In this document: piece by piece, positions 19,456 to 33,838 of the stretch
Position numbering within the stretch: the first letter of the stretch is position 1
How the letters are laid out: each line of letters opens with the position of its first letter
DNA from: Plasmodiophora brassicae
Taxonomy: Eukaryota
NCBI GenBank assembly: GCA_036867785.1
Contig: CP145419.1
Coordinates: 1,116,001 to 1,180,000 of the forward strand
DNA length: 64,000 bases
Direction of reading: 5' to 3'
Made by a program: the position numbers and the translations under genes
Notes under the pieces: model-generated
The model's input: the letters and a program-made list of their open reading frames with translations, nothing else
Told to the model about the DNA's origin: nothing
Database searches by the model: none

Positions 19456-21162
19456 TCACAGGAGCGTGGCAAGCGCGTCGAGCACAGCCCTGACGAGGAG
19501 GAGAAACAGAACAACGGTGACGACGCGGTGGAACGGTGTGATCTCGTAGGCCGGGTAGGTGAGGCGTCCACCAGCATACCGAAGTAGCCCTTCGGTGTGT
19601 CGGGACTGGCCGTGCACGGCCGCCACGCGCATCGGCGTCATGCCGAACTTGTCGAGCGCGTTCACGTCAATCCGGTCTGCGTTCGTCAGCAACAAGACGG
19701 CGGACGCGTGACCAGCAGCAACGGCCACATGCAACGGCGTCCTCAGGTTGTTGTCGTAGGCGTTGACGTCGATCCCCCGTGCATTCAGCAGCCCAGATAT
19801 AGCATTGTCGGCATTCCTGCCTGCTGCCAAGTGCAGCGGCGTGCACATGTTCTTGTCGCAGGCGTTGACGTCGATCCCAGGTGCGCTGGTCAGCAGATCG
19901 ATTTCCTCGAAATCGACCGCCATGTGCAAGGGCGTCCTGTAGTCGTTGTCGCGCGCGTTGACGTCGCATCCGGATGCTTTCAGCAGCTCTGCGACGACTC
20001 GGTCGTTCCTCGCCTGCACCGCCCAGTGCAGGGGGGTCCGGTTATCGCTATCACCGGCATTGATCTCGATATCAGGTGCCTTCAGCAACACTTTGGTGAC
20101 ATTGCGAGATGCGGCAATCGCTGCCCTGTGCAACGGCGTCATCTGGAGGTCGTCGCGCGCGTTGACTTTGACCTTGTCGACAGCCAATAACGCCTCGACG
20201 ACACGAACGTGCCCAAGGGCAGACGCGACGTGCAACGGGGTCGTCCCTTGGAAGTCGGCTGCGCTGACTGCGATCCCAGGCGCCTTGGCCAACAGCTCCA
20301 CAACCCGGACATGTCCAGCAATAGCGGCCTTGTGCAGAGGCGTCATGGCCGTTCCGTCCACCAGGTAGACTCGGATGCCAGGAGCGCGCAGCAACGCCTC
20401 GACAACGCGAACGTGGCCATGCATGGCCGCCAGATGCAGAGGCGTCCGCCCGGAGGCGTCCCGCACGTGCAGGTCGATCCCGGGGAGGATTATCAGCACC
20501 TGAACGACCCGTTCCTCATCCTTTGTCGCGGCCCATTGCAGCAGGTTGTCGTCGGATTGACCCCATCGCCCCTCGTTGACGAGGCTGATGTTCCCTCCGT
20601 AGACAACGATCTCCCGGATCCTTGCAACAATTGCCCGGTCATCGGTCGTATTGGCAACGTGGTCAAGCCGGGCAAAGTTGGCGCAGTTGTCGACCACAGG
20701 GCGGAGCGCGCTGTTCGGGAGGGAACCGTTCCAGGCGATGACGTCGCTCCAGATGTCATACGCGACAGCGCCCATCAGCACCCTCATGTCAAGGTAGTCC
20801 ACAGCTGACAGGAGTTCGCATTTCGCTTCCAGCGCCATACCGGCGACCCAGTCACGTTGCCAGGTCTGCCGTACACTAATTACGCGCAGGGCGGTCGTGG
20901 CGGGGCAAGCGCACGACGAAATCAGAGCCGTCCTGTTGATGTAGTCGACAATGGGCACCAGCTGGGCATTGACGACGCGTTCCAGCGGGATGACGTCTAC
21001 AGCGGCGTCAGTACGATCGCCCGCTTCGGCGATCACGTCGTGCAGCACGCGCGACAGAGCGGCGGCGGCCGTGCTGTTGACGACGTGGTCGACGCCATCG
21101 CTGGATCGGAGCACGGCAGCGTCAAGAGCACCGGCCAGCAGGACGATGAACAACCACCACAT
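19456..21162 (-). CDS. Signal peptide + SKP1/BTB-like domain + ~9-10 ankyrin repeats + C-terminal hydrophobic helix
   Basis: MWWLFIVLLAGALDA signal; VLRSSDGVDHVV...LSRVLHDVI...IPLERV...ELLSAVDYLDM (SKP1-like); repeated TPLHxAA; C-terminal VVTVVLFLLLVRAVL. Intronless. Confidence 0.9.
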   Translation of the reverse strand: MWWLFIVLLAGALDAAVLRSSDGVDHVVNSTAAAALSRVLHDVIAEAGDRTDAAVDVIPLERVVNAQLVPIVDYINRTALISSCACPATTALRVISVRQTWQRDWVAGMALEAKCELLSAVDYLDMRVLMGAVAYDIWSDVIAWNGSLPNSALRPVVDNCANFARLDHVANTTDDRAIVARIREIVVYGGNISLVNEGRWGQSDDNLLQWAATKDEERVVQVLIILPGIDLHVRDASGRTPLHLAAMHGHVRVVEALLRAPGIRVYLVDGTAMTPLHKAAIAGHVRVVELLAKAPGIAVSAADFQGTTPLHVASALGHVRVVEALLAVDKVKVNARDDLQMTPLHRAAIAASRNVTKVLLKAPDIEINAGDSDNRTPLHWAVQARNDRVVAELLKASGCDVNARDNDYRTPLHMAVDFEEIDLLTSAPGIDVNACDKNMCTPLHLAAGRNADNAISGLLNARGIDVNAYDNNLRTPLHVAVAAGHASAVLLLTNADRIDVNALDKFGMTPMRVAAVHGQSRHTEGLLRYAGGRLTYPAYEITPFHRVVTVVLFLLLVRAVLDALATLL

Positions 21163-21840
21163 GGGCGGGGCGGCACCGCCGATGAACATGACGGCGCGTC
21201 ACGAAAAGTCAATGACGGACCGGCATCTCCACGGTCACTGTCACACTGCAGACCGCGCAACTGCACTGCGTGACTGCGATTCCATTTCGCACCGCACTCG
21301 GACTGCACCCGCTGTCTCGGACTGCGCGGCCGACTGCGACACAGGCGCTCCAGTGACGCCGGAAATTACTGCGCAGTGGAGTGCTTTAGTAGAACGAAGC
21401 GGATCCATTAGGGAGGTAAAATGGGGGACTGTAATGAGTATATAATTCAGGCTTAGGCGGCAAATGCGCACTCACACTATTTACAGAGGGCTGCCAGGCT
21501 ACCAGAGTTTGCAATCTTTCTGCTGAAAATGCAATTTGCGGCCGAAAATTGCGCATTCGATGGCAGCCAGACGCGCCCTACACAGTGCGCCAACCCAACT
21601 TGCGGAGTTCCTGCACTGCGGACCTGACCCGGCAAACGCGGTCAACGGCACTCTCCACGAGACACGGCTGGCGGCTGAAGGACGCAAACCATTGTGTAAG
21701 AGAGGAGCTGCCGTCGACAACGTCAGCGTTCGCGTCGCGTACCGAGCGAACACGTTTGATCACTTCGTTTCCGCACAGCATCCGAAGGCCGCCGGCGTTT
21801 AACCCGGTCCGCATCTACCTCGACCTGTCTTGATCGATCG

Positions 21841-22839
21841 ATGCATTCCTCAACCCGTTTCCGCCAGTGGGCCCCGCTATTGGCCTGTCTGATAATTCAT
21901 ATCACACATTCGACCCCGGCAGGCGAGGCGATCTTGGGACGTCGCCGGACACCCGAAGGCGGCGTTGCCAACGTGGTATCGTACAACGTGCAATCGTTCC
22001 CATCGACCCTCCAGTGGGCGATCTACGTCCCCAACGCCGACCGCATTGAGCACATCGCCACGACCAAAGTCATGCAATCGCCGCAACTCGACGTGGTCGT
22101 CTTGCAGGAGGCGTTTGCGAAGTCGACGGTGAAGCGCCTGGCCAACGACCTGTCTCTCATGGGATTCAGCCACATCGTGAAGCCTGCGCGGCCCCCGTTC
22201 AAGCTTAACGGTGGCGTTATGATCGCGTCACGATCGATGCTGATCCGGGAATCATCGCTGACATTCCAAAAGTGCTGCGGGCTGGACTGTTTCGCAGCAA
22301 AGGGGATCGTCTTCGTCGAGACACGCATCGACGGCAAATCGGTGGGGATCATTGGAACGCACCTCCAGGCGAACGATCCGCTGTGTGCCTCGTTCTCAAG
22401 TACGGCGTATGAAGCCGCTCGAGAGGTACGACGGGATCAGCTTCGGCAGATTCGGCAGTTCGTCGACCGGGAAGAGAACGCCCGCCTGGATGTGATGATC
22501 GTGGCCGGCGACCTGAACGTCAACGGGTATGCAGAGGCGGCCAGCGACCAGGAAACGGAGGAATGGAACGAAATGATGCAGGCGCTGCAAGCGGCCCCGA
22601 TGACGCGCACGAAGCATCGCACAACGCTGGATCACTCGATGGATCCGGCCACGAATTCCTACATGGCGCGCACTGGCGACACGAAGCACGAGCACTTGGA
22701 TTATGTCCTGTCGCTGCGCCTCCCGGGGCGATCGGCTCCGCCCAACGCAACTACGCTTCGTGTGCACAGGGCCAGGCATCCGATCACGAACGCAGACCTG
22801 TCCGATCACCATCCCGTTCACGGTCGCGTCCCGTTGTGA
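21841..22839 (+). CDS. Secreted sphingomyelinase C / EEP-superfamily phosphodiesterase
   Basis: SYNV, DVVVLQEAF, NGGVMIASR, DCFAAKG, GTHLQA, AGDLNVN, LDYV and SDHHPV motifs; N-terminal hydrophobic stretch; intronless. Confidence 0.85.
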   Translation: MHSSTRFRQWAPLLACLIIHITHSTPAGEAILGRRRTPEGGVANVVSYNVQSFPSTLQWAIYVPNADRIEHIATTKVMQSPQLDVVVLQEAFAKSTVKRLANDLSLMGFSHIVKPARPPFKLNGGVMIASRSMLIRESSLTFQKCCGLDCFAAKGIVFVETRIDGKSVGIIGTHLQANDPLCASFSSTAYEAAREVRRDQLRQIRQFVDREENARLDVMIVAGDLNVNGYAEAASDQETEEWNEMMQALQAAPMTRTKHRTTLDHSMDPATNSYMARTGDTKHEHLDYVLSLRLPGRSAPPNATTLRVHRARHPITNADLSDHHPVHGRVPL

Positions 22840-26083: not shown

Positions 26084-27484
26084 TTACAGGGTTGCCAGGG
26101 CGGCGCGCAACGCAGGGCACTTGTCGGCATGGGCGCGGCCGGCGTGTTCCGCGTACTCGCGGCTACAGATGAAGTCGACCATGATCGCCAGGCACTCCTT
26201 CTCGAGGTCGCCGTCGTCGCGCCCCAATAGCTTGCGCGCCTCGTCCACCGTCCACCGGCGCCGTTCGCCGCCCAGCAGGCTGTCCGGGCTGAACTTGAAC
26301 GTGTTCGCGTGCAGGAACGCGACCTTGGCCATGTCCGGGTCGTACTGGACGATCGCCGTCCCTTCGAAGCCGCCGCCCGGCTGGAACCGGCCCAGAAAGT
26401 CGGGCTGCCGGCCCACCTTGTGGTACGAATGGCCGAGCGCGTCGAACGCGGCCGGGAACGTCTCCTTGTCGCCGCCGCCGCACCGATGGCCGCCCGTCCC
26501 CAGGTTGTAGTGCAGCCCCGCCTGCAGGTTCATCTCCAGCGCCAGCATCATCGCCTGCCAGTGCCTGGCCTTGTCGACGAGCATCTGCCCCGTTTCGAAC
26601 GTCCCGCGCCCATCGGACGTATCGGGGTGCAGGTCCAGGATCTCCCAGTAGGCCGCGTTCGTGTTGCAGGCCCAGTAGTCGGGCCAGAACATGGCGCCCG
26701 TTCGCCGGTACGCGACATGGTCGAACAGGTACGTCGGGTCCGCCGCCGGCAGGTTGTCGCTGTCCAGGAACAGGATGTCGCGGAACGCGCTCATCACCAG
26801 CGCCATCGACTTGATCTGGAACCGCTTGTCGGCGTGCACGAACCCGAGGTCGACGCCGGCACCCTGCCCGCCGTCCACGTCGCACATGCAGCGAACGGCG
26901 ACGCGTAGACGGGCGAAGTAGGCGATCAGGGACTGGCCAGGCATCTCGTCGCCCAGGAACCACAGCTCGATCGGCAGGTCGCAGCCCAGCTGCCGAAGCC
27001 GGGTGATGGTGATGACGGCCGTGTGCAGGTGCTGGAGCCGGCCGCCCGACATCACGATGCCCCGGCCGCCGCGCAGCAGCGCATCGGGCGCCGTCCTCGG
27101 GACGTTATCGAGGAACGTGTGCCATTGCCAACGCGCGCGCTCGATCGCTTCGGGCGACATCGCGACGGCGAACACCCACGGGTGCGGGACGCGCGCGAAC
27201 TGACACCCGGGATCGCCGGCCAGGTCGATCGAGAACTCGGGAACGTGCGCCAGGTCGGCCTTGCGGGCGGCATCGGTGATCGTGGACCAGAGCGCGCGAC
27301 CAGCCCGCAGCACGTGGCGTGGCGTCTGCACCGACGACGTCGACGGGTCGACGACGTCGGCCGCGCGGCGTACCAGGCCGATGGCCCGCACCAGGGACAC
27401 CGCCGCGAGCACGCTGACGCCGAGGACGGCCACCCGGTGCATGATGCGCCCGCCCTTCAGCCGCGCCACCTTGTACGTCGCCAT
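26084..27484 (-). CDS. Alpha-mannosyltransferase, GT71 (MNN2/MNN5-like), type II membrane protein
   Basis: GRGIVMSGG, LRQLGCDLPIELW, QIKSMAL, ILFLDSDN (DxD), GAMFWPDYW, ETGQMLVDK, GDKETF; N-terminal TM. Confidence 0.9.
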   Translation of the reverse strand: MATYKVARLKGGRIMHRVAVLGVSVLAAVSLVRAIGLVRRAADVVDPSTSSVQTPRHVLRAGRALWSTITDAARKADLAHVPEFSIDLAGDPGCQFARVPHPWVFAVAMSPEAIERARWQWHTFLDNVPRTAPDALLRGGRGIVMSGGRLQHLHTAVITITRLRQLGCDLPIELWFLGDEMPGQSLIAYFARLRVAVRCMCDVDGGQGAGVDLGFVHADKRFQIKSMALVMSAFRDILFLDSDNLPAADPTYLFDHVAYRRTGAMFWPDYWACNTNAAYWEILDLHPDTSDGRGTFETGQMLVDKARHWQAMMLALEMNLQAGLHYNLGTGGHRCGGGDKETFPAAFDALGHSYHKVGRQPDFLGRFQPGGGFEGTAIVQYDPDMAKVAFLHANTFKFSPDSLLGGERRRWTVDEARKLLGRDDGDLEKECLAIMVDFICSREYAEHAGRAHADKCPALRAALATL

Positions 27485-27811
27485 GGTGGTACGGCGTCGA
27501 ATGGCGGTTTGCGCCGCGGCGCCGTTGCGGGGGCACCCTTCGTGACGCGCTGGGCTATTTCTGGATCCCCGGGCGCAGTCGTCGCACGATTCGCACCGCA
27601 ATTTCCGGGTCAACAACCCCGAGTCGTTTTTTGCAACTCCGTGTGGCCTCACACTGTCTCACATCGAAACTGCAGATCAGAACAGGCCACTGGTGTGCGC
27701 ATTTTCAGGTCGTGCTGCTACAAATTGGCCAAACTTTTGCCTGTTGCCATTCGCAAAGGAATGATTCAGTTGTACTATATCGACATTGTACGGGGATCGT
27801 ATGTGCATGGG

Positions 27812-29084
27812 CTACGGGCCGTCAAACACGCCTGGCCACGGGTCGCCCGGCGCGCGACAGGTGCCCGTCGCCCTGCAATTCGCAAAGCACTGCTCGACGG
27901 ACACGAAGTCGTGCCCGGGGTGGGCCTGCACCAGCCAGTCGAGGATGCCGCGCGCCCCGGGCGTCGCGTAGTGCGCGTCGTGCAGAACGATCACCAGGGA
28001 GGCGTCAGGGCCCAGCCTGCGTTTCTCCTTCGCGATGGCCGCCTGGATCGCGGGCAGCGTCGCTCCCGTCCAGTCCATCGAGTCGACCGTCCACGAGGCG
28101 ATCGTGTACCCGAGGGAATTCACGAACAGGGCCTGCGTGTGCCCCAGTTCGCCGTACGGTGGACGGAACATCGACATGGGCACGTCCAGGTCGCAGAACG
28201 TGTCCAGGTAGTCCTCGACGCTGTCAATCTCGGCGGAAATCGCATTGGTATCCAGCGTCTTGAAATTGGGATGCGACATTGAGTCTGGAGACGGGCGTGA
28301 GAACGGCTGGGACAAGCAACGACAGGGCGATAGGCTTACGACTCTGGATCGAGTGGCCCGCATCGATGACGCGCGCCAGCTGCGAGCAGAACGACACGTC
28401 GCCCCGATAGCATGTGGGGCAGATGAAGAACGTGGCCGGGATGGCGAGTCGCTCGAGGTCGTTCAACAGGTTCGTCAGTTGCGGCTCGACGAATACCGAG
28501 TCGTCAAAGGTGACCGAAATCCAGGGGATCGGCCCGCACCAGTCGAAGACGGACACGTCGCCGACAGTAACGGGGACCGGTGGGTGGGGACCAGCCATCA
28601 ACACCGACGGGCAAATCGACTGTTCGTTGCAGTACGCCGACGAGGACCCGCACCTGGATCCGAAGGAACGATCAGTGCTGCAGAGAAAGACGGCTATAAG
28701 AGCGCCGACGAACCATCCATAGCGGGAGCAGCACTGGCCAGGACGGCAACCGGCGTTACCAACGGCGGTCCCGCAACGGTTATCCGGGCGAGGTGGAGCC
28801 CAGCACGCGGTCGCCACTCGATCAGGAGTACACATCGATTCGTCGTTGCAGTAGTCCGAGCCAGTCCCGCACCTATCGGCGATCGGTGAGGTGGCGCGCA
28901 CGGCCCCGACGAGCACAACGACGTACCAGCCGTGCGGCGAGCAGCAGGACCCAGGCGGGCACCCGGCGCCACTCACCCAAGGGCCGCACCTGTTATCCGG
29001 ACGGGGAGCGCCCTCGCACGCAGCTCCCGCCACCGTCGTCACCAGCAGCAGCAGCAGCAGCATCGCGGCAACAACGATCTTCAT
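27812..29084 (-). CDS. Secreted 2x CBM18 (hevein-like) + CE4 polysaccharide/chitin deacetylase
   Basis: Signal peptide MKIVVAAMLLLLLLVTTVAG; two RCG...CCSxxGW/CG modules, each split by an intron; CE4 motifs TFDD, HSMSH (spliced), RPPYG, DSMDW, LHD. Confidence 0.9.
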
Positions 29085-29482
29085 CGCCCCAAACACACTT
29101 GCGCCTGTCGTCCACCAAACGCACCCACTTGCAGAATGAACTAGCTTTGGACGTTCCAGCACGGCAGGCGGGTGCCCCCCAAAGTGGTGTGTTGCTCCGA
29201 CGGGCGCAACTTCTGCTCGGAGAAATCGAGGTAGGTACCCCCCGAAAGTGCGGGCGCCGCTGTGTAACGAACGCGCCGCGGTTCGCTCGTGGAATCGGGC
29301 CGGTAACGACGGGACGTCTTTTGGGCGACACGGAACCGGTTCAAACTTGGCGGCAAAATGCGACACCACCACCGCTGAGCTGCGCTGCGCTCCTCTCTCT
29401 GTCTGTCTCCCCGGTGGTCGGCGTGGCCCCGTCCGTCATTAGGGCTATTCGTCGGGTTCGCACCACCACGCGGCACCCGGTA

Positions 29483-30892
29483 ATGCGGACGGACAACGGG
29501 TCGCCGTCCGCGATGGCGCGCGCGGTGTCGTTTACGGCGTCGCGTCAGGTGAAGAGGCCGGCGACGTCGGCGCCGCTGGGCAAGGCGGCGTCGCGTCGCA
29601 AGGTCCAGTTCGGCAACCGGAAGGTCGCCGTTGGGTCGCTGCAGCGCCTCGCCGACTCGACGCCGTTGTTCCGCGCCGGCGACTGGGCGGCCCTGCGCGC
29701 CCGCCTGCACGCCGACGGCGTCCTGCTCGTCCGCGGCGTCGTCGACCGGGCCGTCGCCGTCGACGCGCGACGCCTGCTCCTCAAGACCGTCGAGCAGAAG
29801 GGCGCGCTCGCCCCTGGATCAAATTACCAAGACGGTCCGTTGATGTTTGCCCGTTGCGACGGCCTCCTTTACCGCGTTGCTCGATCACCGGGCTCGTTTC
29901 GTCAGTAACGGTCGATGCAGGGATCATCGGGACCGGCAAGGACGGCAAGCTGGTGCCCGGCTATACGGTGGATGCGTTATCGGGCGGCCTGACGGACGAA
30001 CGGGACGACGACCAGGACGGGTGGCTGGCGGTCGGCACGTCGACGACCATGTCGTCCGTGTTCGACGGCGGCTACCTGCGCGGGTTCCTGGCCGGCCTGT
30101 TCGGCGGCCCGGACAACATCGAGACGCTGCCGGAGAACACGTGGTTGCGCCTGAAGGGCAGGGGCGACGTCACCATTGAGCACGCCGACTACTTCTACTT
30201 CAAGCGCTCAACCGGTATAACAGCGGGGGATTCCAGTCGCTTGTGAGCAGCGCGTTGCTGATTCCGCCGTCTGTTAGACATGTTCGAGCGGTACGCGACT
30301 GACGACGAGAAGGTGGCGCACGACGGGTCGTGCGGCGCCTGCGGCCGGACGACCGGGTCGATGGTGCACTGCGGCCTGTGCACACGGGGCTGGCACACGT
30401 CCTGTATGGACGCGTCCGCACGCCCATCCGGGGCGTCGTCCAGCGTGTCGACCTGGCACTGCTCGTCGTGTGCCGATGGGCCCCTGTCCGTGTTCACGGT
30501 ACAACGCCCCTTCGTTCCCCCCCTGTGGCTGCGTTCGCCCCCCTCTGACCCAACGATGGCACTAGTGCTGGTGCGCCCTGGGCGACATCGACCTGCAGGA
30601 CAGCACGCTGGCGTTCGTGCCCGGGACGCACACGCTGACCGGGTACGATCGCGCACGGGCCGGCGAGCAGGTCCCGTCGTCGTTCAAGGGCGGCAGCGCG
30701 CGCTGGCACGTCGCCGACGGGACGCTGCGCCCGGGCGACATCTTCATCTTCAACGTCAAGACCATCCACTGCGCCAGCAAGAACGGCACGACCCGGTTCC
30801 GCGCCAGCCTGGACACGCGCGTCGAGCTGACCCGCCCGGGTCGCCGCGCCTGGCCCCGCCTCGTCGCCCAGGCTGCTCCCCAACTAAAGTGA
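29483..30892 (+). CDS. PhyH-family 2OG-Fe(II) dioxygenase with an inserted PHD finger (introns 29835-29920, 30215-30277, 30499-30565)
   Basis: DGVLLVRGV; WLR..G.G..T..HADYFY (HxD at 30181-30189); FT/CWCALGDI..QDSTLAFVPGTH; PGDIFIF...TIH (30767) and RASLDTR. C4HC3 PHD CGAC...HCGLCTRGWHTSC...WHCSSC in exon 3. All three GT-AG introns preserve frame. Confidence 0.85.
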
Positions 30893-30985
30893 CGTCACGC
30901 CGTCGACTGGACCACGGTTGACTCACGGGAGCGATTCCAACGTGCTTGTGTGCCCCGAGTCGCCCCCGCCCGCCAGATCAATTTT

Positions 30986-33838
30986 ATGTCAAGGGTCGCG
31001 CTCCTCCTATTCGCCGCCGTGTTGTCGTTGGCCGGGCGCGTCGCCTCGCAGTGCGGGACGTGCACGATCTCGGCGGACGGGCACACGGTGACGCTGGACG
31101 GCGCCCAGCACCATTACTATGGGAAGGGCTGGCGCCGCCTGTTCCACATCGAGCAGTTCGAGGCGCAGTGCCTGTACGGGGAGTGCCGCGACGGGCCCGT
31201 GCGCGAGGCGCTCACCGGGCACCTGCTGCGCCACGAGCAGCGCCGCCTGTGCGTCCTGGAGTGCCGCGTGCAATTCGCGCCCGGCGGCAAGCAGTGCCCG
31301 CAGGTCGTCGCCTGGCTGCCGCACGACGTCGCGTCGGCGTCGGCGTCCGTCCCCATCAACGTGAACGGCGTCGCCCTGGACGACGACAAGGGCCTGTCGG
31401 TGAAGGGCGATAACAAGACGGCGCGGACGCGCTGGGCGCTCCGCGTCGAGCGGGTCGCCCGCGACGCCGTCGCCGTCGACGTGCTGCTGGGCGGGGCGCT
31501 GGGCGCCGTCGCCCTGCGCCTGGGGCCGAAGAAGCAGATCACGCTGGCCGTCAAGGGCATCGAGGGCGGCAGCGGCGTCTGCGGGTCCTGCGACGGCATC
31601 GCCACGAACGACCTGGCCGGGGCCACGCGCCTCAACATCAGCGACGTCGACGGGCACAACCGGTTCGCCGGCAACCACGTTCGCGGCGCCAGCGGCTTCC
31701 GCCTGGTGAACCCGGTCCCTGCCTGCGCCGACGCCGCCGAGTCGGCGCCGATCGACGAGGACGCCGAGGTCGCCGCCCTGCGCAAGGCGGCCGACGACGA
31801 GCGCGACGCGCTGCAGTCGCTGCTGAGGCGGAACGCCATGCTGAGGGCGCTCGGGTCGCAGGAGGCGCTGGCCGGCGACCCGGACGCCGACCCGGCGCTG
31901 GCGGTGCCCGGCGTCGCCGTGTTCGCCAACCAGACCGTCCTGGACGCCGTCGCCCACGACTGCCAGGCCGGCATGGTCGTCCGCGGCGACGACGACCGCA
32001 TGAACTTTGCGATCGACTCGTGCGTGTTCGACAAGGCGATGGGGCGGGGCTACGAGGCGGTGGCCGCCGGCGACATCATCGTGTACGTCCAGGGCCTGAT
32101 GCTGGAGCAGCAGGCCGAGCTGGCCCTGCAGCTGTACAGGGAGACGGGCGCCTTCTGCGCCATGTGCCAGGCGGCCATCCAGACGTACGTCGTCGACACG
32201 CAGCCGATCGTGCACCGGCGCCTGGTCGAGCAGCGCGCCACGCCGGCGAACGCCACCACCGCCGTCGCCATGTACGTGCCGTTGTGCCCCGCGCCCTACG
32301 ACCCGCCGCCGCCGACCGACGCGCCGACCGACGCGCCCCTGCTCGGCGTCAAGCCCCTGCCGATGCCGCCGATGCCGACGCTGCCACCGCCGACGAACGC
32401 GACGAACGCGACGACGAACGCGGGCGCCAGGCGGGCGGTGAAGAGCACCGGGAGCGGCGACGGCGGCGCCAAGTCGTCGAGCGGCGGCGCCGTTGTCGTC
32501 GAGTCGGTCAGCAGCGTGCGCGGCGACGTCGAGGGCGACGGCGCGTCGGGCCTGGCGGTCACGTTCAGGGTCGGCGACGACGGCGACAGGTCGTCCAGTG
32601 ACGACCATCTGCACCTAAGAAGCGGGACGTCGTCGTCGTCATCGTCGTCGTCGTCGTCTTCATCGTCGTCGTCTTCATCGTCGTCGCCGTCGTCGTCGTC
32701 ATCGTCATCGCGTGCGACCACGATCGTGAAACCGCTGACGATGGCGCCGCAGCCAACGTACAAGCCCATCGTCCCGGGCAGGGTGCCACCAGCGAAGACG
32801 AACCTCACCACGCCGGCTCCAGCGTCGTCTCCGCCGTCCGATCATGGTCTGGACGCGGGTAGCCCGGACGCGACAACGCCCGCGTCTGTCGCGCCGTCTC
32901 CGGACGCGATGGGCGGGCGACTCCCGAACGCGACGTCGACGATCTCCGAGGACGTAGTGGAAGAGTTCCCGGTGGCGGTTGAACCCGTCGCTCGTTCGCT
33001 GCCCGGCCGCGACACCGTTGTCCCTCCGTCCCCTCGACCCGCCGCACCGCCCCAGGCCCGATCGGCGACGGTGCCCCCATCGGTGGCTGGTGTACCCGCT
33101 AGTAAGGCGGGAGCGCCTTCTGAGCCGATGGCGACCAGCAGTGGCCCGCTGGCGGGTGCGCTTCCAGAGAAGACGTCTGTGCTGCCGAGTCCACCGGGCG
33201 ATGCAGGTCCCCAGGAGGCAACGGCACCGACAGGTGCCGGCGCAGGACAACCAGTGGATGCCGCAGCAGTGCCGATCGATGCACCGGGGGCGCCTGCCGA
33301 TGCCCTTCCGAACGCTGATGCGTCTCCGCCTGTCGTCGGTGATCAACTGTCGTTGCCGTCCAACGCGGGCCCGCCGGGCGACGTGCCGACCGGCGCACCC
33401 GGCCCTATTCGTCACACCTGGTCGCCGAACGCGTTCGTGGCAACGTTGCCGCCCCGGCAGGCGTACGCTGTCACCAAGTCCAAGCTCGGGGAGTTACCAC
33501 GGCGTGTTGGGGACGATGATGGCGGCGGTGCTCCTGTACAGCCGACTGATCAGGACGGCGAACCAGGGAACCAGGAAGGTACCCCAGAGGAGGAATGCGA
33601 GCAAGGCGAAGGTTCCGACGACGACGACGACGACGACGACGACGAAGAAGAAGAAGAGGACTGTAGCGACGTCGAGCTCGATGGTGACGATGAATCATCT
33701 TCGTCGTCCTGCAGCGAATCGGATCCCGGCAAGTCGCACCACCGGGAACGCTATCGCGCCAGGCCGCCGAAACGCCATCGCCGGCAACGTCACCGTAAGA
33801 AACGAGCCACGTCCCGCTCACGAGGCGACCTAGCTTAA
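30986..33838 (+). CDS. Secreted mucin-like protein with N-terminal VWD-like domain, Pro/Ser/Thr-rich stalk, acidic tract and basic tail
   Basis: Signal MSRVALLLFAAVLSLAGRVAS; CTISADGHTVTLDG (cf. GDPHyxTFDG) and GVCGSCDGIATNDL (cf. GLCGnfDG..ND); poly-Ser, PT-rich region, D/E tract, RHRR tail. Confidence 0.75.
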   Translation: MSRVALLLFAAVLSLAGRVASQCGTCTISADGHTVTLDGAQHHYYGKGWRRLFHIEQFEAQCLYGECRDGPVREALTGHLLRHEQRRLCVLECRVQFAPGGKQCPQVVAWLPHDVASASASVPINVNGVALDDDKGLSVKGDNKTARTRWALRVERVARDAVAVDVLLGGALGAVALRLGPKKQITLAVKGIEGGSGVCGSCDGIATNDLAGATRLNISDVDGHNRFAGNHVRGASGFRLVNPVPACADAAESAPIDEDAEVAALRKAADDERDALQSLLRRNAMLRALGSQEALAGDPDADPALAVPGVAVFANQTVLDAVAHDCQAGMVVRGDDDRMNFAIDSCVFDKAMGRGYEAVAAGDIIVYVQGLMLEQQAELALQLYRETGAFCAMCQAAIQTYVVDTQPIVHRRLVEQRATPANATTAVAMYVPLCPAPYDPPPPTDAPTDAPLLGVKPLPMPPMPTLPPPTNATNATTNAGARRAVKSTGSGDGGAKSSSGGAVVVESVSSVRGDVEGDGASGLAVTFRVGDDGDRSSSDDHLHLRSGTSSSSSSSSSSSSSSSSSSSPSSSSSSSRATTIVKPLTMAPQPTYKPIVPGRVPPAKTNLTTPAPASSPPSDHGLDAGSPDATTPASVAPSPDAMGGRLPNATSTISEDVVEEFPVAVEPVARSLPGRDTVVPPSPRPAAPPQARSATVPPSVAGVPASKAGAPSEPMATSSGPLAGALPEKTSVLPSPPGDAGPQEATAPTGAGAGQPVDAAAVPIDAPGAPADALPNADASPPVVGDQLSLPSNAGPPGDVPTGAPGPIRHTWSPNAFVATLPPRQAYAVTKSKLGELPRRVGDDDGGGAPVQPTDQDGEPGNQEGTPEEECEQGEGSDDDDDDDDDEEEEEDCSDVELDGDDESSSSSCSESDPGKSHHRERYRARPPKRHRRQRHRKKRATSRSRGDLA
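32630..32710 (+). repeat. Coding (TCG/TCA/TCT)n repeat encoding poly-serine
   Basis: About 27 codons, almost all Ser. Confidence 0.9.

What the first reader, a model, noticed from the sequence alone, without database searches (positions are those of the whole stretch)
29483..30892. PhyH-type 2OG-Fe(II) dioxygenase with a PHD finger inserted just after its HxD motif: candidate non-JmjC chromatin oxygenase
Seen: splicing three clean GT-AG introns gives one protein with an intact Fe triad (HAD at 30181, distal H at 30767) and a 2OG-binding RxS. A full C4HC3 PHD finger (~30331-30472) sits between HxD and the next beta-strand and is confined to one exon (30278-30498). The N-terminus is basic (KRP, RRK). 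Established: PHD fingers commonly read histone H3 tails, reader+dioxygenase fusions typify JmjC demethylases such as KDM5 and KDM7, and PhyH enzymes are normally small-molecule hydroxylases. Inference: this could be an independently evolved histone or nucleic-acid demethylase/hydroxylase. The ORF track hides it because it is split over four ORFs.
Basis: partly seen in the sequence, partly recalled or inferred. Interest (0 to 1): 0.8.

Follow-up and report, generated by a model that had tools for sequence, protein, structure and literature searches.

The report
PhyH dioxygenase with inserted PHD finger
This is a real, transcribed gene of the clubroot parasite Plasmodiophora brassicae encoding an iron/2-oxoglutarate oxygenase with a histone-reader-type zinc finger built into its catalytic domain. 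It belongs to a widespread, uncharacterised protein family that probably acts on chromatin.

Summary
Exons 29483-29834, 29921-30214, 30278-30498 and 30566-30892 (+) give a 397-aa protein. It matches public Plasmodiophora brassicae models: one is an exact substring and one differs at 4 residues. All three GT-AG introns are spliced in assembled contigs of 4 of 4 runs from 4 studies.

Pfam finds PhyH (39.8 bits) and PHD (25.8 bits; 30.1 on exon 3 alone). The model (pLDDT 89.8) is closest to PtlH (Z 20.9).

The gene is not a one-off. 223 clusters match at E<=1e-10. Of 114 listed relatives that span the insertion site, 67 carry a strict C4HC3 finger there. All 71 aligned full-span members keep H-D-H-R-S. 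Some relatives add SET, JmjC or HMG-box domains. The family's fingers resemble the UHRF1, KDM5/Lid, BHC80, CHD4 and AIRE fingers.

My best reading is a chromatin-directed PhyH-type oxygenase with an unknown substrate (about 0.5). The main rival is a small-molecule enzyme. Nine literature searches found no description. The architecture is already annotated in databases but is functionally unexplored. Interest is about 0.6.

The parts
29483..29834 (+). Exon 1 (ATG at 29483; residues 1-117 plus the first base of codon 118). It encodes the basic, low-confidence N-terminus and the first strands and helix of the PhyH fold.
   Evidence: Searches give the frame and the GT donor at 29835. In one search, contigs of 4 of 4 runs cover it and join 29834 to 29921. 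In one search, pLDDT is below 50 for P0003 residues 1-16.
29552..29608 (+). Bipartite NLS-like motif KR-x12-RRKVQ (residues 24-42).
   Evidence: regex. The two closest relatives (P0160, P0157) also have an N-terminal match. 168 of 2000 shuffles of the protein give a match, so the evidence is weak. The consensus itself is recalled.
29835..29920 (+). Intron 1 (86 nt, GT..AG). It is partly retained in the assemblies.
   Evidence: In one search a spliced 58-nt contig and an unspliced 144-nt contig are both present in 4 of 4 runs. Retention would stop translation at codon 142.
29921..30214 (+). Exon 2. It encodes the core of the double-stranded beta-helix up to the HxD strand and the following helix.
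30181..30189 (+). H205-A-D207, the first two iron ligands (HxD).
   Evidence: H and D are invariant in 45 of 45 and 71 of 71 aligned relatives.
30215..30277 (+). Intron 2 (63 nt, GT..AG).
   Evidence: In one search it is joined in 4 of 4 runs by contigs with 221 nt or more on each side.
30278..30498 (+). Exon 3 (221 nt, residues 216-289). It encodes the linker helix, the PHD finger and the start of the next core strand. Its length is not a multiple of 3, so skipping it shifts the frame.
   Evidence: Pfam PHD scores 30.1 bits on this exon alone.
30331..30471 (+). C4HC3 PHD finger, C234 to C280. The zinc ligands are C234, C237, C247, C250, H255, C258, C277 and C280, with Trp275 two residues before C277.
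   Evidence: The best solved relatives are Rco1, PHF21A, PHF10, ORTHRUS2, ZMYND11 and AIRE fingers.
30499..30565 (+). Intron 3 (67 nt, GT..AG).
   Evidence: In one search it is joined in 4 of 4 runs.
30566..30892 (+). Exon 4 (residues 290-397 plus TGA at 30890-30892). It encodes the C-terminal half of the PhyH domain and a terminal helix.
   Evidence: Pfam PhyH scores 36.5 bits on this exon alone.
30767..30769 (+). His357, the distal iron ligand.
   Evidence: Invariant in 45 of 45 and 71 of 71.
30800..30808 (+). R368-A-S370, the 2-oxoglutarate C5-carboxylate binding motif, 11 residues after the distal His.
   Evidence: R and S are invariant in 71 of 71. It aligns to the RMSMDTR of PtlH. The role of the Arg is recalled from PHYH and PtlH.

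Best explanation
The locus is a real, expressed four-exon gene of Plasmodiophora brassicae. It encodes a 397-aa Fe(II)/2-oxoglutarate oxygenase of the PhyH type.

Shown:
- The catalytic set is complete: His205, Asp207 and His357 for iron, and Arg368/Ser370 plus Thr202 and Arg194 for 2-oxoglutarate.
- A C4HC3 PHD zinc finger is inserted in the loop that leaves the HxD strand. It re-enters the barrel only about 7 residues before the next core strand.
- The protein belongs to a large, unnamed family. The three members that carry an organism name are rhizarians. In this family the finger insertion looks ancestral and the catalytic residues are invariant.

Inferred:
- Family members are fused to SET, JmjC and HMG-box domains, and the family's fingers resemble readers of the unmodified histone H3 N-terminus. 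I therefore infer that the enzyme works on chromatin.
- In this model the finger docks on a histone tail, most likely H3. It holds a nearby side chain at the iron centre.
- The Fe(IV)-oxo intermediate then either hydroxylates that side chain or hydroxylates an N-methyl group, which falls off as formaldehyde (demethylation).
- The basic N-terminus with a bipartite NLS-like motif would take the protein to the nucleus.

The logic parallels KDM5, where a PHD finger is embedded in a JmjC catalytic module, but it uses a different oxygenase family. The substrate residue and the reaction type are unknown.
For: Gene and splicing:
- Searches show identity with public models.
- One search shows all three joints in 4 of 4 runs from 4 studies.

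Domains:
- PhyH scores 39.8 bits and PHD 25.8 bits on the whole protein. On single exons they score 36.5 and 30.1 bits.

Fold:
- The AlphaFold2 model has pLDDT 89.8 and pTM 0.89, with the finger blocks at 91-93.
- PtlH is the best match: Foldseek E 3.3e-11; Z 20.9, rmsd 2.9 A, 231 residues aligned.

Catalytic conservation:
- H195, D197, H347, R358 and S360 (P0003 numbering) are invariant in 45 of 45 and 71 of 71.

Family size:
- 623 clusters match at E<=1e-3, 223 at E<=1e-10 and 56 at E<=1e-30.

Finger is conserved at the same site:
- PF00628 is found in 34 of 63 relatives scanned.
- A strict C4HC3 pattern is found in 41 of 71 full-span members and in 67 of the 114 listed hits that span the site.
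- In a tree built without the insert columns, 11 fingerless sequences split from the other 60 with SH-like support 1.0.

Chromatin-type fusions among 78 relatives scanned:
- SET above cut-off in P0057, P0059 and P0151.
- JmjC in P0093.
- HMG box in P0124.
- P0057 was recovered as an identical 886-aa protein from two sources.

Finger type:
- The family profile hits CHD4, PHF12, MLL3, BAZ2A/B, DPF3, ATXR5, KDM5 PHD1, UHRF1, PHF21A and AIRE.
- P0013's finger hits UHRF1 at 2.3e-11 and Lid PHD1 at 2.2e-10.
- The P. brassicae finger hits Rco1 at 1e-4 and PHF21A at 1.7e-4.

Other:
- There is an NLS-like motif, also present N-terminally in the two closest relatives.
- There is no hydrophobic signal peptide.
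- The finger clade has a longer, acidic loop with median net charge -3, against 0 in the fingerless clade.
Against: - No experiment or computation here shows histone binding, nuclear location or any substrate.
- Every close solved relative is a small-molecule enzyme: PtlH, SnoK/SnoN, AviO1, PHYH, PHYHD1, AsqJ, KanJ, EasH. I recall no PhyH-type enzyme that acts on a protein.
- The P. brassicae finger is divergent. It scores 25.8 bits against a cut-off of 24. It has Gly after C3 where 17 of 41 family fingers have Asp/Glu, and no PP in its last loop, a feature present in only 8 of 41.
- Within the finger clade the finger is dispensable for keeping the catalytic residues. Of its 60 members, 16 lack a C4HC3 pattern under the loose rule. 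Four of these have only a short link and 12 have a long insert without the pattern.
- The fused forms are gene predictions from metagenome or transcriptome assemblies. Two of the fusions (P0124 HMG, P0121 weak SET) are in members without a strict finger.
- The N-terminal composition (basic, Ser/Ala-rich) would also fit a mitochondrial presequence.
- The NLS-like pattern arises in 168 of 2000 shuffles.
- I had no model coordinates. The position of the finger relative to the iron is inferred from topology only.
Confidence: 0.5

Rival explanations
1. It is a metabolite (small-molecule) hydroxylase like its solved relatives. The finger serves as a structural zinc module, an oligomerisation or partner-binding module, or a regulatory lid over the pocket. 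It has no histone substrate.
For: - All top structural and sequence matches of the catalytic domain are small-molecule enzymes.
- The P. brassicae finger is divergent.
- The finger has decayed or been lost in 16 of 60 clade members while the catalytic residues stay invariant.
- The sister clade of 11 has no finger at all.
Against: - SET, JmjC and HMG-box fusions occur in the same family.
- The family fingers match histone-tail readers at E down to 2.3e-11.
- All eight zinc ligands, and the Trp before C7, are kept in P. brassicae.
- There is an NLS-like N-terminus.
Confidence: 0.3
2. It is a nucleic-acid oxygenase that hydroxylates or demethylates a base in DNA or RNA. The finger and, in relatives, the HMG box tether it to chromatin.
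For: - An HMG-box fusion occurs in P0124.
- 2OG oxygenases of other families (TET/JBP, AlkB) do this, which I recall.
- NgTET1 appears only as a distant fold match (Z 10.9).
Against: - There is no specific similarity to TET/JBP or AlkB. The PhyH-type matches score far higher, Z 15-21 against 10.9.
- SET and JmjC partners point to histone lysine chemistry rather than to bases.
Confidence: 0.1
3. It is a catalytically inactive reader or scaffold protein that merely keeps the oxygenase fold.
For: None specific. PhyH-like folds without activity exist in complexes, for example a RESC subunit at Z 15.4.
Against: The iron triad and the RxS 2OG motif are intact here and invariant in 71 of 71 relatives. 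That is the signature of selection for catalysis.
Confidence: 0.04
4. It is an artefact of gene modelling: the finger exon belongs to another transcript, or the ORFs are chance ORFs of GC-rich DNA.
For: The window is 63% G+C, and long spurious ORFs occur on both strands.
Against: Spliced contigs in 4 of 4 runs join exon 3 to exons 2 and 4. Three public models agree. Homologues align across the whole length at E down to 1.2e-80.
Confidence: 0.01

Closest known systems
PtlH, 1-deoxypentalenic acid 11-beta-hydroxylase of Streptomyces (PDB 2rdn/2rdq)
   Same: It is the best solved relative by profile (E 1.3e-16, both N- and C-terminal parts aligned). It is also best by Foldseek (E 3.3e-11) and by VIA-align (Z 20.9, rmsd 2.9 A, 231 aligned, 22% identity). 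It has the same HxD...H triad and the same R-x-S-x-D-T-R motif.
   Different: It is bacterial and acts on a sesquiterpenoid acid. It has no finger. By the profile alignment, and my recall that its HxD is H137/D139, only about 14 residues link its HxD to the next core strand. Here 83 residues do.
Human PHYH and PHYHD1 (PDB 2a1x, 3obz), founding members of Pfam PF05721
   Same: Same Pfam family and fold (Z 16.8 and 16.6; profile E 6.7e-11 for 2a1x). The Arg lies 11 residues after the distal His.
   Different: PHYH is a peroxisomal acyl-CoA hydroxylase (recalled). Neither has a finger, an NLS-like N-terminus or chromatin-domain partners.
KDM5/JARID1/Lid JmjC histone demethylases (PHD1 embedded between JmjN and JmjC)
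   Same: Same design: a histone-reader PHD finger inserted inside a 2OG-oxygenase catalytic module. The family's fingers are sequence relatives of Lid/KDM5 PHD1 (E 2.2e-10 for Lid, 2.6e-07 for KDM5A). That KDM5 PHD1 reads H3K4me0 is recalled.
   Different: The catalytic domain is JmjC, not PhyH. No JmjC match was found in this protein. The insertion point and the other accessory domains differ. The similarity is one of working principle, not membership.
KDM7/PHF8/PHF2 (PHD followed by JmjC)
   Same: A reader plus a 2OG oxygenase in one chain. The PHF8 and PHF2 fingers appear among weak matches of the P. brassicae finger (E 0.062-0.58).
   Different: The arrangement is tandem, not inserted, and the fold family is JmjC. 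The finger reads H3K4me3 (recalled), whereas the family here resembles readers of unmodified H3.
UHRF1, PHF21A/BHC80, AIRE, CHD4 and Rco1 PHD fingers
   Same: These are the closest solved fingers. They have the same C4HC3 spacing and the Trp two residues before C7.
   Different: They sit in non-enzymatic or other enzymatic contexts. The P. brassicae finger lacks the acidic residue after C3 and the PP motif that many of them have (their roles are recalled).

Membership tests
PhyH family of Fe(II)/2OG oxygenases (Pfam PF05721) | Match to the family HMM above the curated cut-off | tested here: met
   39.8 bits against a cut-off of 22 on P0003, and 36.5 bits on exon 4 alone. Only profile positions 108-212 matched, because the finger splits the domain.
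PhyH family of Fe(II)/2OG oxygenases (Pfam PF05721) | Double-stranded beta-helix fold most similar to solved PhyH-type enzymes | tested here: met
   The model has pLDDT 89.8. PtlH scores Z 20.9, followed by SnoK, AviO1, PHYH and PHYHD1 at Z 16.6-17.1. Foldseek gives E 3.3e-11.
PhyH family of Fe(II)/2OG oxygenases (Pfam PF05721) | HxD...H iron triad | tested here: met
   H205, D207 and H357. They are invariant in 71 of 71 relatives.
PhyH family of Fe(II)/2OG oxygenases (Pfam PF05721) | Arg about 11 residues after the distal His that binds the 2OG C5 carboxylate (RxS) | tested here: met
   R368 and S370 are invariant in 71 of 71 and align to PtlH RMSMDTR.
PhyH family of Fe(II)/2OG oxygenases (Pfam PF05721) | 2OG-dependent oxygenase activity | not testable with these tools
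   Needs recombinant protein and a 2OG turnover assay.
PHD finger (Pfam PF00628) | Match to the family HMM above the curated cut-off | tested here: met
   30.1 bits on exon 3 alone and 25.8 bits in the whole protein, against a cut-off of 24. The margin is narrow.
PHD finger (Pfam PF00628) | C4HC3 ligand order and spacing, with Trp two residues before the seventh ligand | tested here: met
   C-x2-C-x9-C-x2-C-x4-H-x2-C-x18-C-x2-C, with 'TWHC' before the last pair.
PHD finger (Pfam PF00628) | Binding of a histone tail | not testable with these tools
   Needs peptide arrays or ITC. The sequence hallmarks of unmodified-H3 readers (recalled) are weak in this member: Gly after C3 and no PP. They are clearer in relatives.
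RING finger | C3HC4 ligand order and a match to RING models | tested here: not met
   The ligand order is C4HC3. No RING family was listed at E<=1.
JmjC histone demethylases (KDM5, KDM7) | JmjC catalytic domain | tested here: not met
   No JmjC match. JmjC-type structures are only distant fold matches: FIH Z 11.8, JMJD7 11.1, JMJD5 10.9.
JmjC histone demethylases (KDM5, KDM7) | Histone lysine demethylation | not testable with these tools
   Needs enzyme assays with methylated histone peptides.

The most novel reading that the evidence does not exclude
PhyH-PHD proteins are a previously unrecognised class of chromatin-modifying 2OG oxygenases, evolved independently of JmjC, TET/JBP and AlkB. 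The three members that carry an organism name are rhizarians. An embedded H3-tail reader feeds a histone side chain, or its N-methyl group, to a PhyH-type iron centre. The result would be either a new histone mark (hydroxylation) or a non-JmjC demethylation.
Probability: 0.3. Interest if true: 0.85.

Novelty: new variant of a known kind. Interest (0 to 1): 0.62.

Why it matters
As far as I recall, every known 2OG oxygenase that acts on histones is a JmjC enzyme, and those that act on nucleic acids are TET/JBP or AlkB enzymes. PhyH-type enzymes are known only as small-molecule hydroxylases, halogenases and the like.

This family has a histone-reader finger inside the PhyH catalytic domain and keeps invariant catalytic residues. 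Some members have SET, JmjC and HMG-box partners. If it acts on chromatin, it would be an independent recruitment of an oxygenase fold to chromatin. It could point to unknown histone marks in poorly studied eukaryotes.

The hypothesis is directly testable with recombinant protein. The family is large (223 clusters at E<=1e-10), and none of the nine literature searches found it discussed.

In P. brassicae, an economically important crop parasite with almost no functional chromatin biology, it is one concrete candidate regulator.

Tried and rejected
Calls that gave no usable result:
- Complex prediction of the protein with residues 2-41 of a canonical histone H3, plus 2 Zn and Fe (collected): verdict 'no answer', score 0.02. 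It counts neither for nor against binding. The job was turned back three times for a full queue.
- The look-up of sequencing runs listed no holder on record as RNA. The runs are labelled 'RNA?' as a guess. I treat them as holding RNA only because their contigs lack the introns.
- The search of earlier findings was not open. No whole genome is held for this window, so paralogues in P. brassicae could not be counted.
- The search for related loci on viral contigs with A1 failed because there was no conserved stretch.
- A bacterial promoter/terminator scan is irrelevant for a eukaryote.

Searches that added little:
- The search for homologous proteins, three searches, gave few hits and few names. 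Organism names for the family were obtained only for P. brassicae, Cercozoa sp. M6MM (P0014) and Paulinella chromatophora (P0025).
- The Atlas searches scored 0.83-0.85, which makes them leads only. Their PhyH clusters from Chlorophyta, Oomycota and Bacillariophyta do not show a PHD share. The taxonomic range beyond Rhizaria remains open.
- PDB searches with the fused proteins P0057 and P0151 found nothing. P0093's JmjC matches KDM4D only weakly (E 0.0045).
- A scan of prokaryote genomes with six fingerless relatives found only 24-30% identical genes in Chlamydiae and Actinomycetes. No origin can be inferred.
- No histone H3 or H4 motif was found in the window.
- PF27108.1, listed in the precomputed domains of P0157, is not in the local Pfam copy and remains unidentified.

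Ideas considered and dropped:
- The '(mitochondrion)' tag in the name of SPQ99008.1. The gene has spliceosomal introns and that record's contig is 1.27 Mb.
- A classical secreted effector. No hydrophobic N-terminal stretch is present; the maximum mean hydropathy is 0.71.
- A finger-less isoform by exon-3 skipping. The exon is 221 nt, so skipping shifts the frame.

Literature:
- Nine full-text searches found no paper describing a PhyH-PHD protein or PBRA_008944.
- For two papers I read only the passages found by term search (PMC3475032; PMC2453528). Neither is relevant. All other papers were seen as search listings only.
- Supplements were not opened, so expression tables of P. brassicae transcriptome papers may hold data on this gene that I did not see.
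Full report
**What is there.** The window is 63% G+C and comes from Plasmodiophora brassicae. The exon-4 peptide finds PBRA_008944 at 98% identity. Joining 29483-29834, 29921-30214, 30278-30498 and 30566-30892 on the + strand gives an open 397-codon frame. The three introns are GT..AG and measure 86, 63 and 67 nt.

Three public models cover the locus:
- A truncated 237-aa model (CEP02360.1).
- A 397-aa model (SPQ99008.1) that differs from my translation at 4 residues.
- A 387-aa model (XXQ36797.1, 'PHD-type domain-containing protein') that is an exact substring, residues 11-397.

The gene is not hidden from annotation.

**Transcript evidence.** I laid Logan contigs of four runs from four studies on 29300-31000.
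- In 4 of 4 runs a contig joins 30214 to 30278 and 30498 to 30566, with at least 221 nt on the shorter side.
- In 4 of 4 runs a 58-nt contig joins 29834 to 29921.
- All three skipped pieces read GT..AG.
- The runs are only guessed to be RNA. The absence of introns from their contigs is what shows they hold spliced RNA.
- An unspliced 144-nt contig across intron 1 is also present in all four runs. This could be intron retention or DNA carry-over. Retention would end translation at codon 142.
- Contigs begin at about 29339-29383. In three runs they end at about 30884-30911.
- Exon 3 is 221 nt, so skipping it shifts the frame. The finger is not an optional cassette.

**Domains and residues.**
- On single exons, Pfam gives PHD on exon 3 (E 4.9e-07, 30.1 bits, cut-off 24) and PhyH on exon 4 (E 8.3e-09, 36.5 bits, cut-off 22).
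- On the whole protein it gives PhyH 39.8 bits and PHD 25.8 bits.
- Only the C-terminal half of the PhyH profile aligns, because the finger splits the domain. The N-terminal half is recovered by a weak NCBIfam match to PtlH and by the family profile against PDB. There PtlH aligns both at its residues 9-66 and at 151-259 (E 1.3e-16).
- The iron triad is H205, D207 and H357. R368-x-S370 follows the distal His by 11 residues, as in PHYH and PtlH (role recalled).
- The finger is C234-x2-C-x9-C-x2-C-x4-H-x2-C-x18-C-x2-C280, with Trp275 two residues before the seventh ligand. This is the PHD order, not the RING order, and no RING model matched.

**Structure.** An AlphaFold2 model built on a 45-sequence alignment has mean pLDDT 89.8 and pTM 0.89.
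- The finger blocks score 91-93. There are dips in the linker before the finger (66) and in its long last loop (69). The first 16 residues are disordered.
- Foldseek and VIA-align both put PtlH first: E 3.3e-11; Z 20.9, rmsd 2.9 A, 231 residues, 22% identity.
- A plateau of PhyH-type enzymes at Z 15-17 follows: SnoK, AviO1, TlxJ, PHYH, AsqJ, PHYHD1, KanJ and EasH.
- JmjC-type and TET-type oxygenases come far lower, at Z about 11.
- I had no coordinates, so the place of the finger relative to the iron is inferred from topology only. It starts after a short helical hairpin that follows the metal-binding Asp. It ends about 7 residues before the next core strand, T289-C-W291.

**A family, not a singleton.** An exhaustive HMMER search of 1.84 billion representatives found 623 clusters at E<=1e-3, 223 at E<=1e-10 and 56 at E<=1e-30. 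Many aligned in one stretch right across the finger.
- Of 63 relatives scanned with Pfam, 56 show PhyH and 34 show PF00628 at E<=1e-3, always just upstream of the C-terminal PhyH half.
- I aligned 71 sequences (70 relatives plus the query) whose match spans the whole catalytic domain over fewer than 620 residues. Four duplicate or truncated cluster members and longer multi-domain matches were left out.
- All 71 keep H, D, H, R and S. Forty-one have a strict C4HC3 pattern in the insert and 3 more a loose one.
- The remaining 27 have no finger pattern. Fourteen of them have only an 11-35 residue link and 13 have a long insert without the pattern.
- Of 148 listed hits, 114 span the insertion site and 67 of those have a strict finger.
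- A FastTree built on 269 core columns with the insert removed splits 11 fingerless sequences from the other 60 with SH-like support 1.0. Among the 60, 4 have lost the insert and 12 have long inserts with no finger pattern.
- With midpoint rooting this reads as one old insertion followed by decay in some lines. The root is not established.
- Organism names were obtained for only three members, all Rhizaria: P. brassicae, Cercozoa sp. M6MM and Paulinella chromatophora. The rest come from unnamed environmental or transcriptome assemblies.

**Why chromatin.** Two lines of evidence, both indirect.

First, domain partners. Among 78 relatives scanned:
- P0057, P0059 and P0151 carry SET domains above the cut-off.
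- P0121 carries one just below it (21 against 22.4 bits).
- P0093 carries an N-terminal JmjC (28.7 bits).
- P0124 carries an HMG box (44.5 bits).
- P0131 has a PDZ domain and P0053 has a DUF7869.
- P0057 exists as an identical 886-aa protein in two sources.

Second, the finger type.
- The family profile and a canonical member hit UHRF1, Lid/KDM5 PHD1, BAZ2A/B, CHD4, PHF21A, ATXR5, DPF3, KAT6A and AIRE fingers at E down to 2.3e-11. I recall these as readers of the H3 N-terminus with unmodified K4 or R2.
- The P. brassicae finger alone still finds Rco1, PHF21A, PHF10, ORTHRUS2, ZMYND11 and AIRE, at E 1e-4 to 1e-3.
- It is nevertheless a divergent member. It has Gly after C3 (Asp/Glu in 17 of 41 family fingers), no PP in the last loop (present in 8 of 41), and a longer Ser-rich loop.

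Weaker hints:
- A KR-x12-RRKVQ bipartite NLS-like motif starts at residue 24. N-terminal matches also occur in the two closest relatives. The pattern arises in 168 of 2000 shuffles.
- There is no signal-peptide-like hydrophobic stretch.
- The finger clade has a longer acidic loop, median charge -3 against 0.

**Mechanism proposed.**
- Shown: an intact, conserved Fe/2OG site, an embedded PHD finger, expression and splicing.
- Inferred: the finger binds a histone tail and positions a nearby residue at the iron. The ferryl intermediate then hydroxylates a side chain or an N-methyl group.
- The nearest analogue in working principle is KDM5, where PHD1 is embedded in the Jumonji module. By descent the protein is a PhyH enzyme, and it fails the JmjC membership test.
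- I put about 0.5 on the chromatin-directed reading, 0.3 on a small-molecule enzyme with a non-histone role for the finger, 0.1 on a nucleic-acid substrate, and little on a dead enzyme or an artefact.

**Against my reading.**
- All close solved relatives are small-molecule enzymes.
- The finger decays in part of the clade without loss of catalytic residues.
- Two of the fusions are in members without a strict finger.
- The fusions are unverified gene calls.
- The N-terminus would also suit a mitochondrial presequence.
- The docking test with an H3 tail gave no answer and counts neither way.

**Novelty.** Nine full-text searches found nothing on a PhyH-PHD protein or on PBRA_008944. Passages read in two papers were irrelevant. 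Supplements and non-open papers were not searched. Databases already annotate both domains. What is new is recognising a large family with an embedded reader and chromatin partners. I rate it a new variant of a known kind (2OG oxygenases coupled to histone readers), with interest 0.62.

Noticed in passing
window 29835-29920: Intron 1 appears both spliced (58-nt contig) and unspliced (144-nt contig) in all 4 runs laid, while introns 2 and 3 appear only spliced. This could be intron retention or DNA carry-over. The 141-aa Logan proteins P0004 and P0006 in the same cluster have the length of the retained-intron ORF (stop at codon 142).
   Followed up: partly
window 30073: Run X5 reads A instead of T. 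This turns Tyr169 into Asn, the residue found in the public models P0001 and P0002. Together with A229P, A319P and Q391E, these look like isolate polymorphisms.
   Followed up: partly
window 28227-29135 (- strand): A divergently oriented neighbour has a hydrophobic N-terminus, repeated Cys-rich hevein-like chitin-binding motifs (Chitin_bind_1, 27.9 bits) and a weak polysaccharide deacetylase match (19.7 bits, below cut-off). It is a likely secreted chitin-binding or chitin-deacetylase-like protein.
   Followed up: partly
window 30983-33835 (+ strand): A 951-aa ORF lies directly downstream with no Pfam match. It has a signal-peptide-like start, a long poly-Ser run, Pro-rich stretches, a poly-Asp/Glu run and a very basic C-terminus. 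In run X1 one 2608-nt contig runs from the oxygenase gene into it.
   Followed up: no
window 19459-21189 (-), 21841-22836 (+), 26087-27652 (-): Other neighbours are an ankyrin-repeat protein (Ank_2, 235 bits), an endonuclease/exonuclease/phosphatase-family protein (36.3 bits) and a putative mannosyltransferase (137.9 bits). None has an evident functional link to the finding.
   Followed up: no
P0157 (relative, 406 aa): Its precomputed domain list includes PF27108.1. This family is absent from the local Pfam copy and I could not identify it. It may be a recent Pfam entry covering part of this family.
   Followed up: partly
L001-L004 (Chlamydiae / Rhabdochlamydia MAG contigs): The nearest prokaryotic relatives of the fingerless sister clade found in the species-representative genomes are in Chlamydiae and Actinomycetes, at 24-30% identity. 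No conclusion on gene transfer can be drawn.
   Followed up: no
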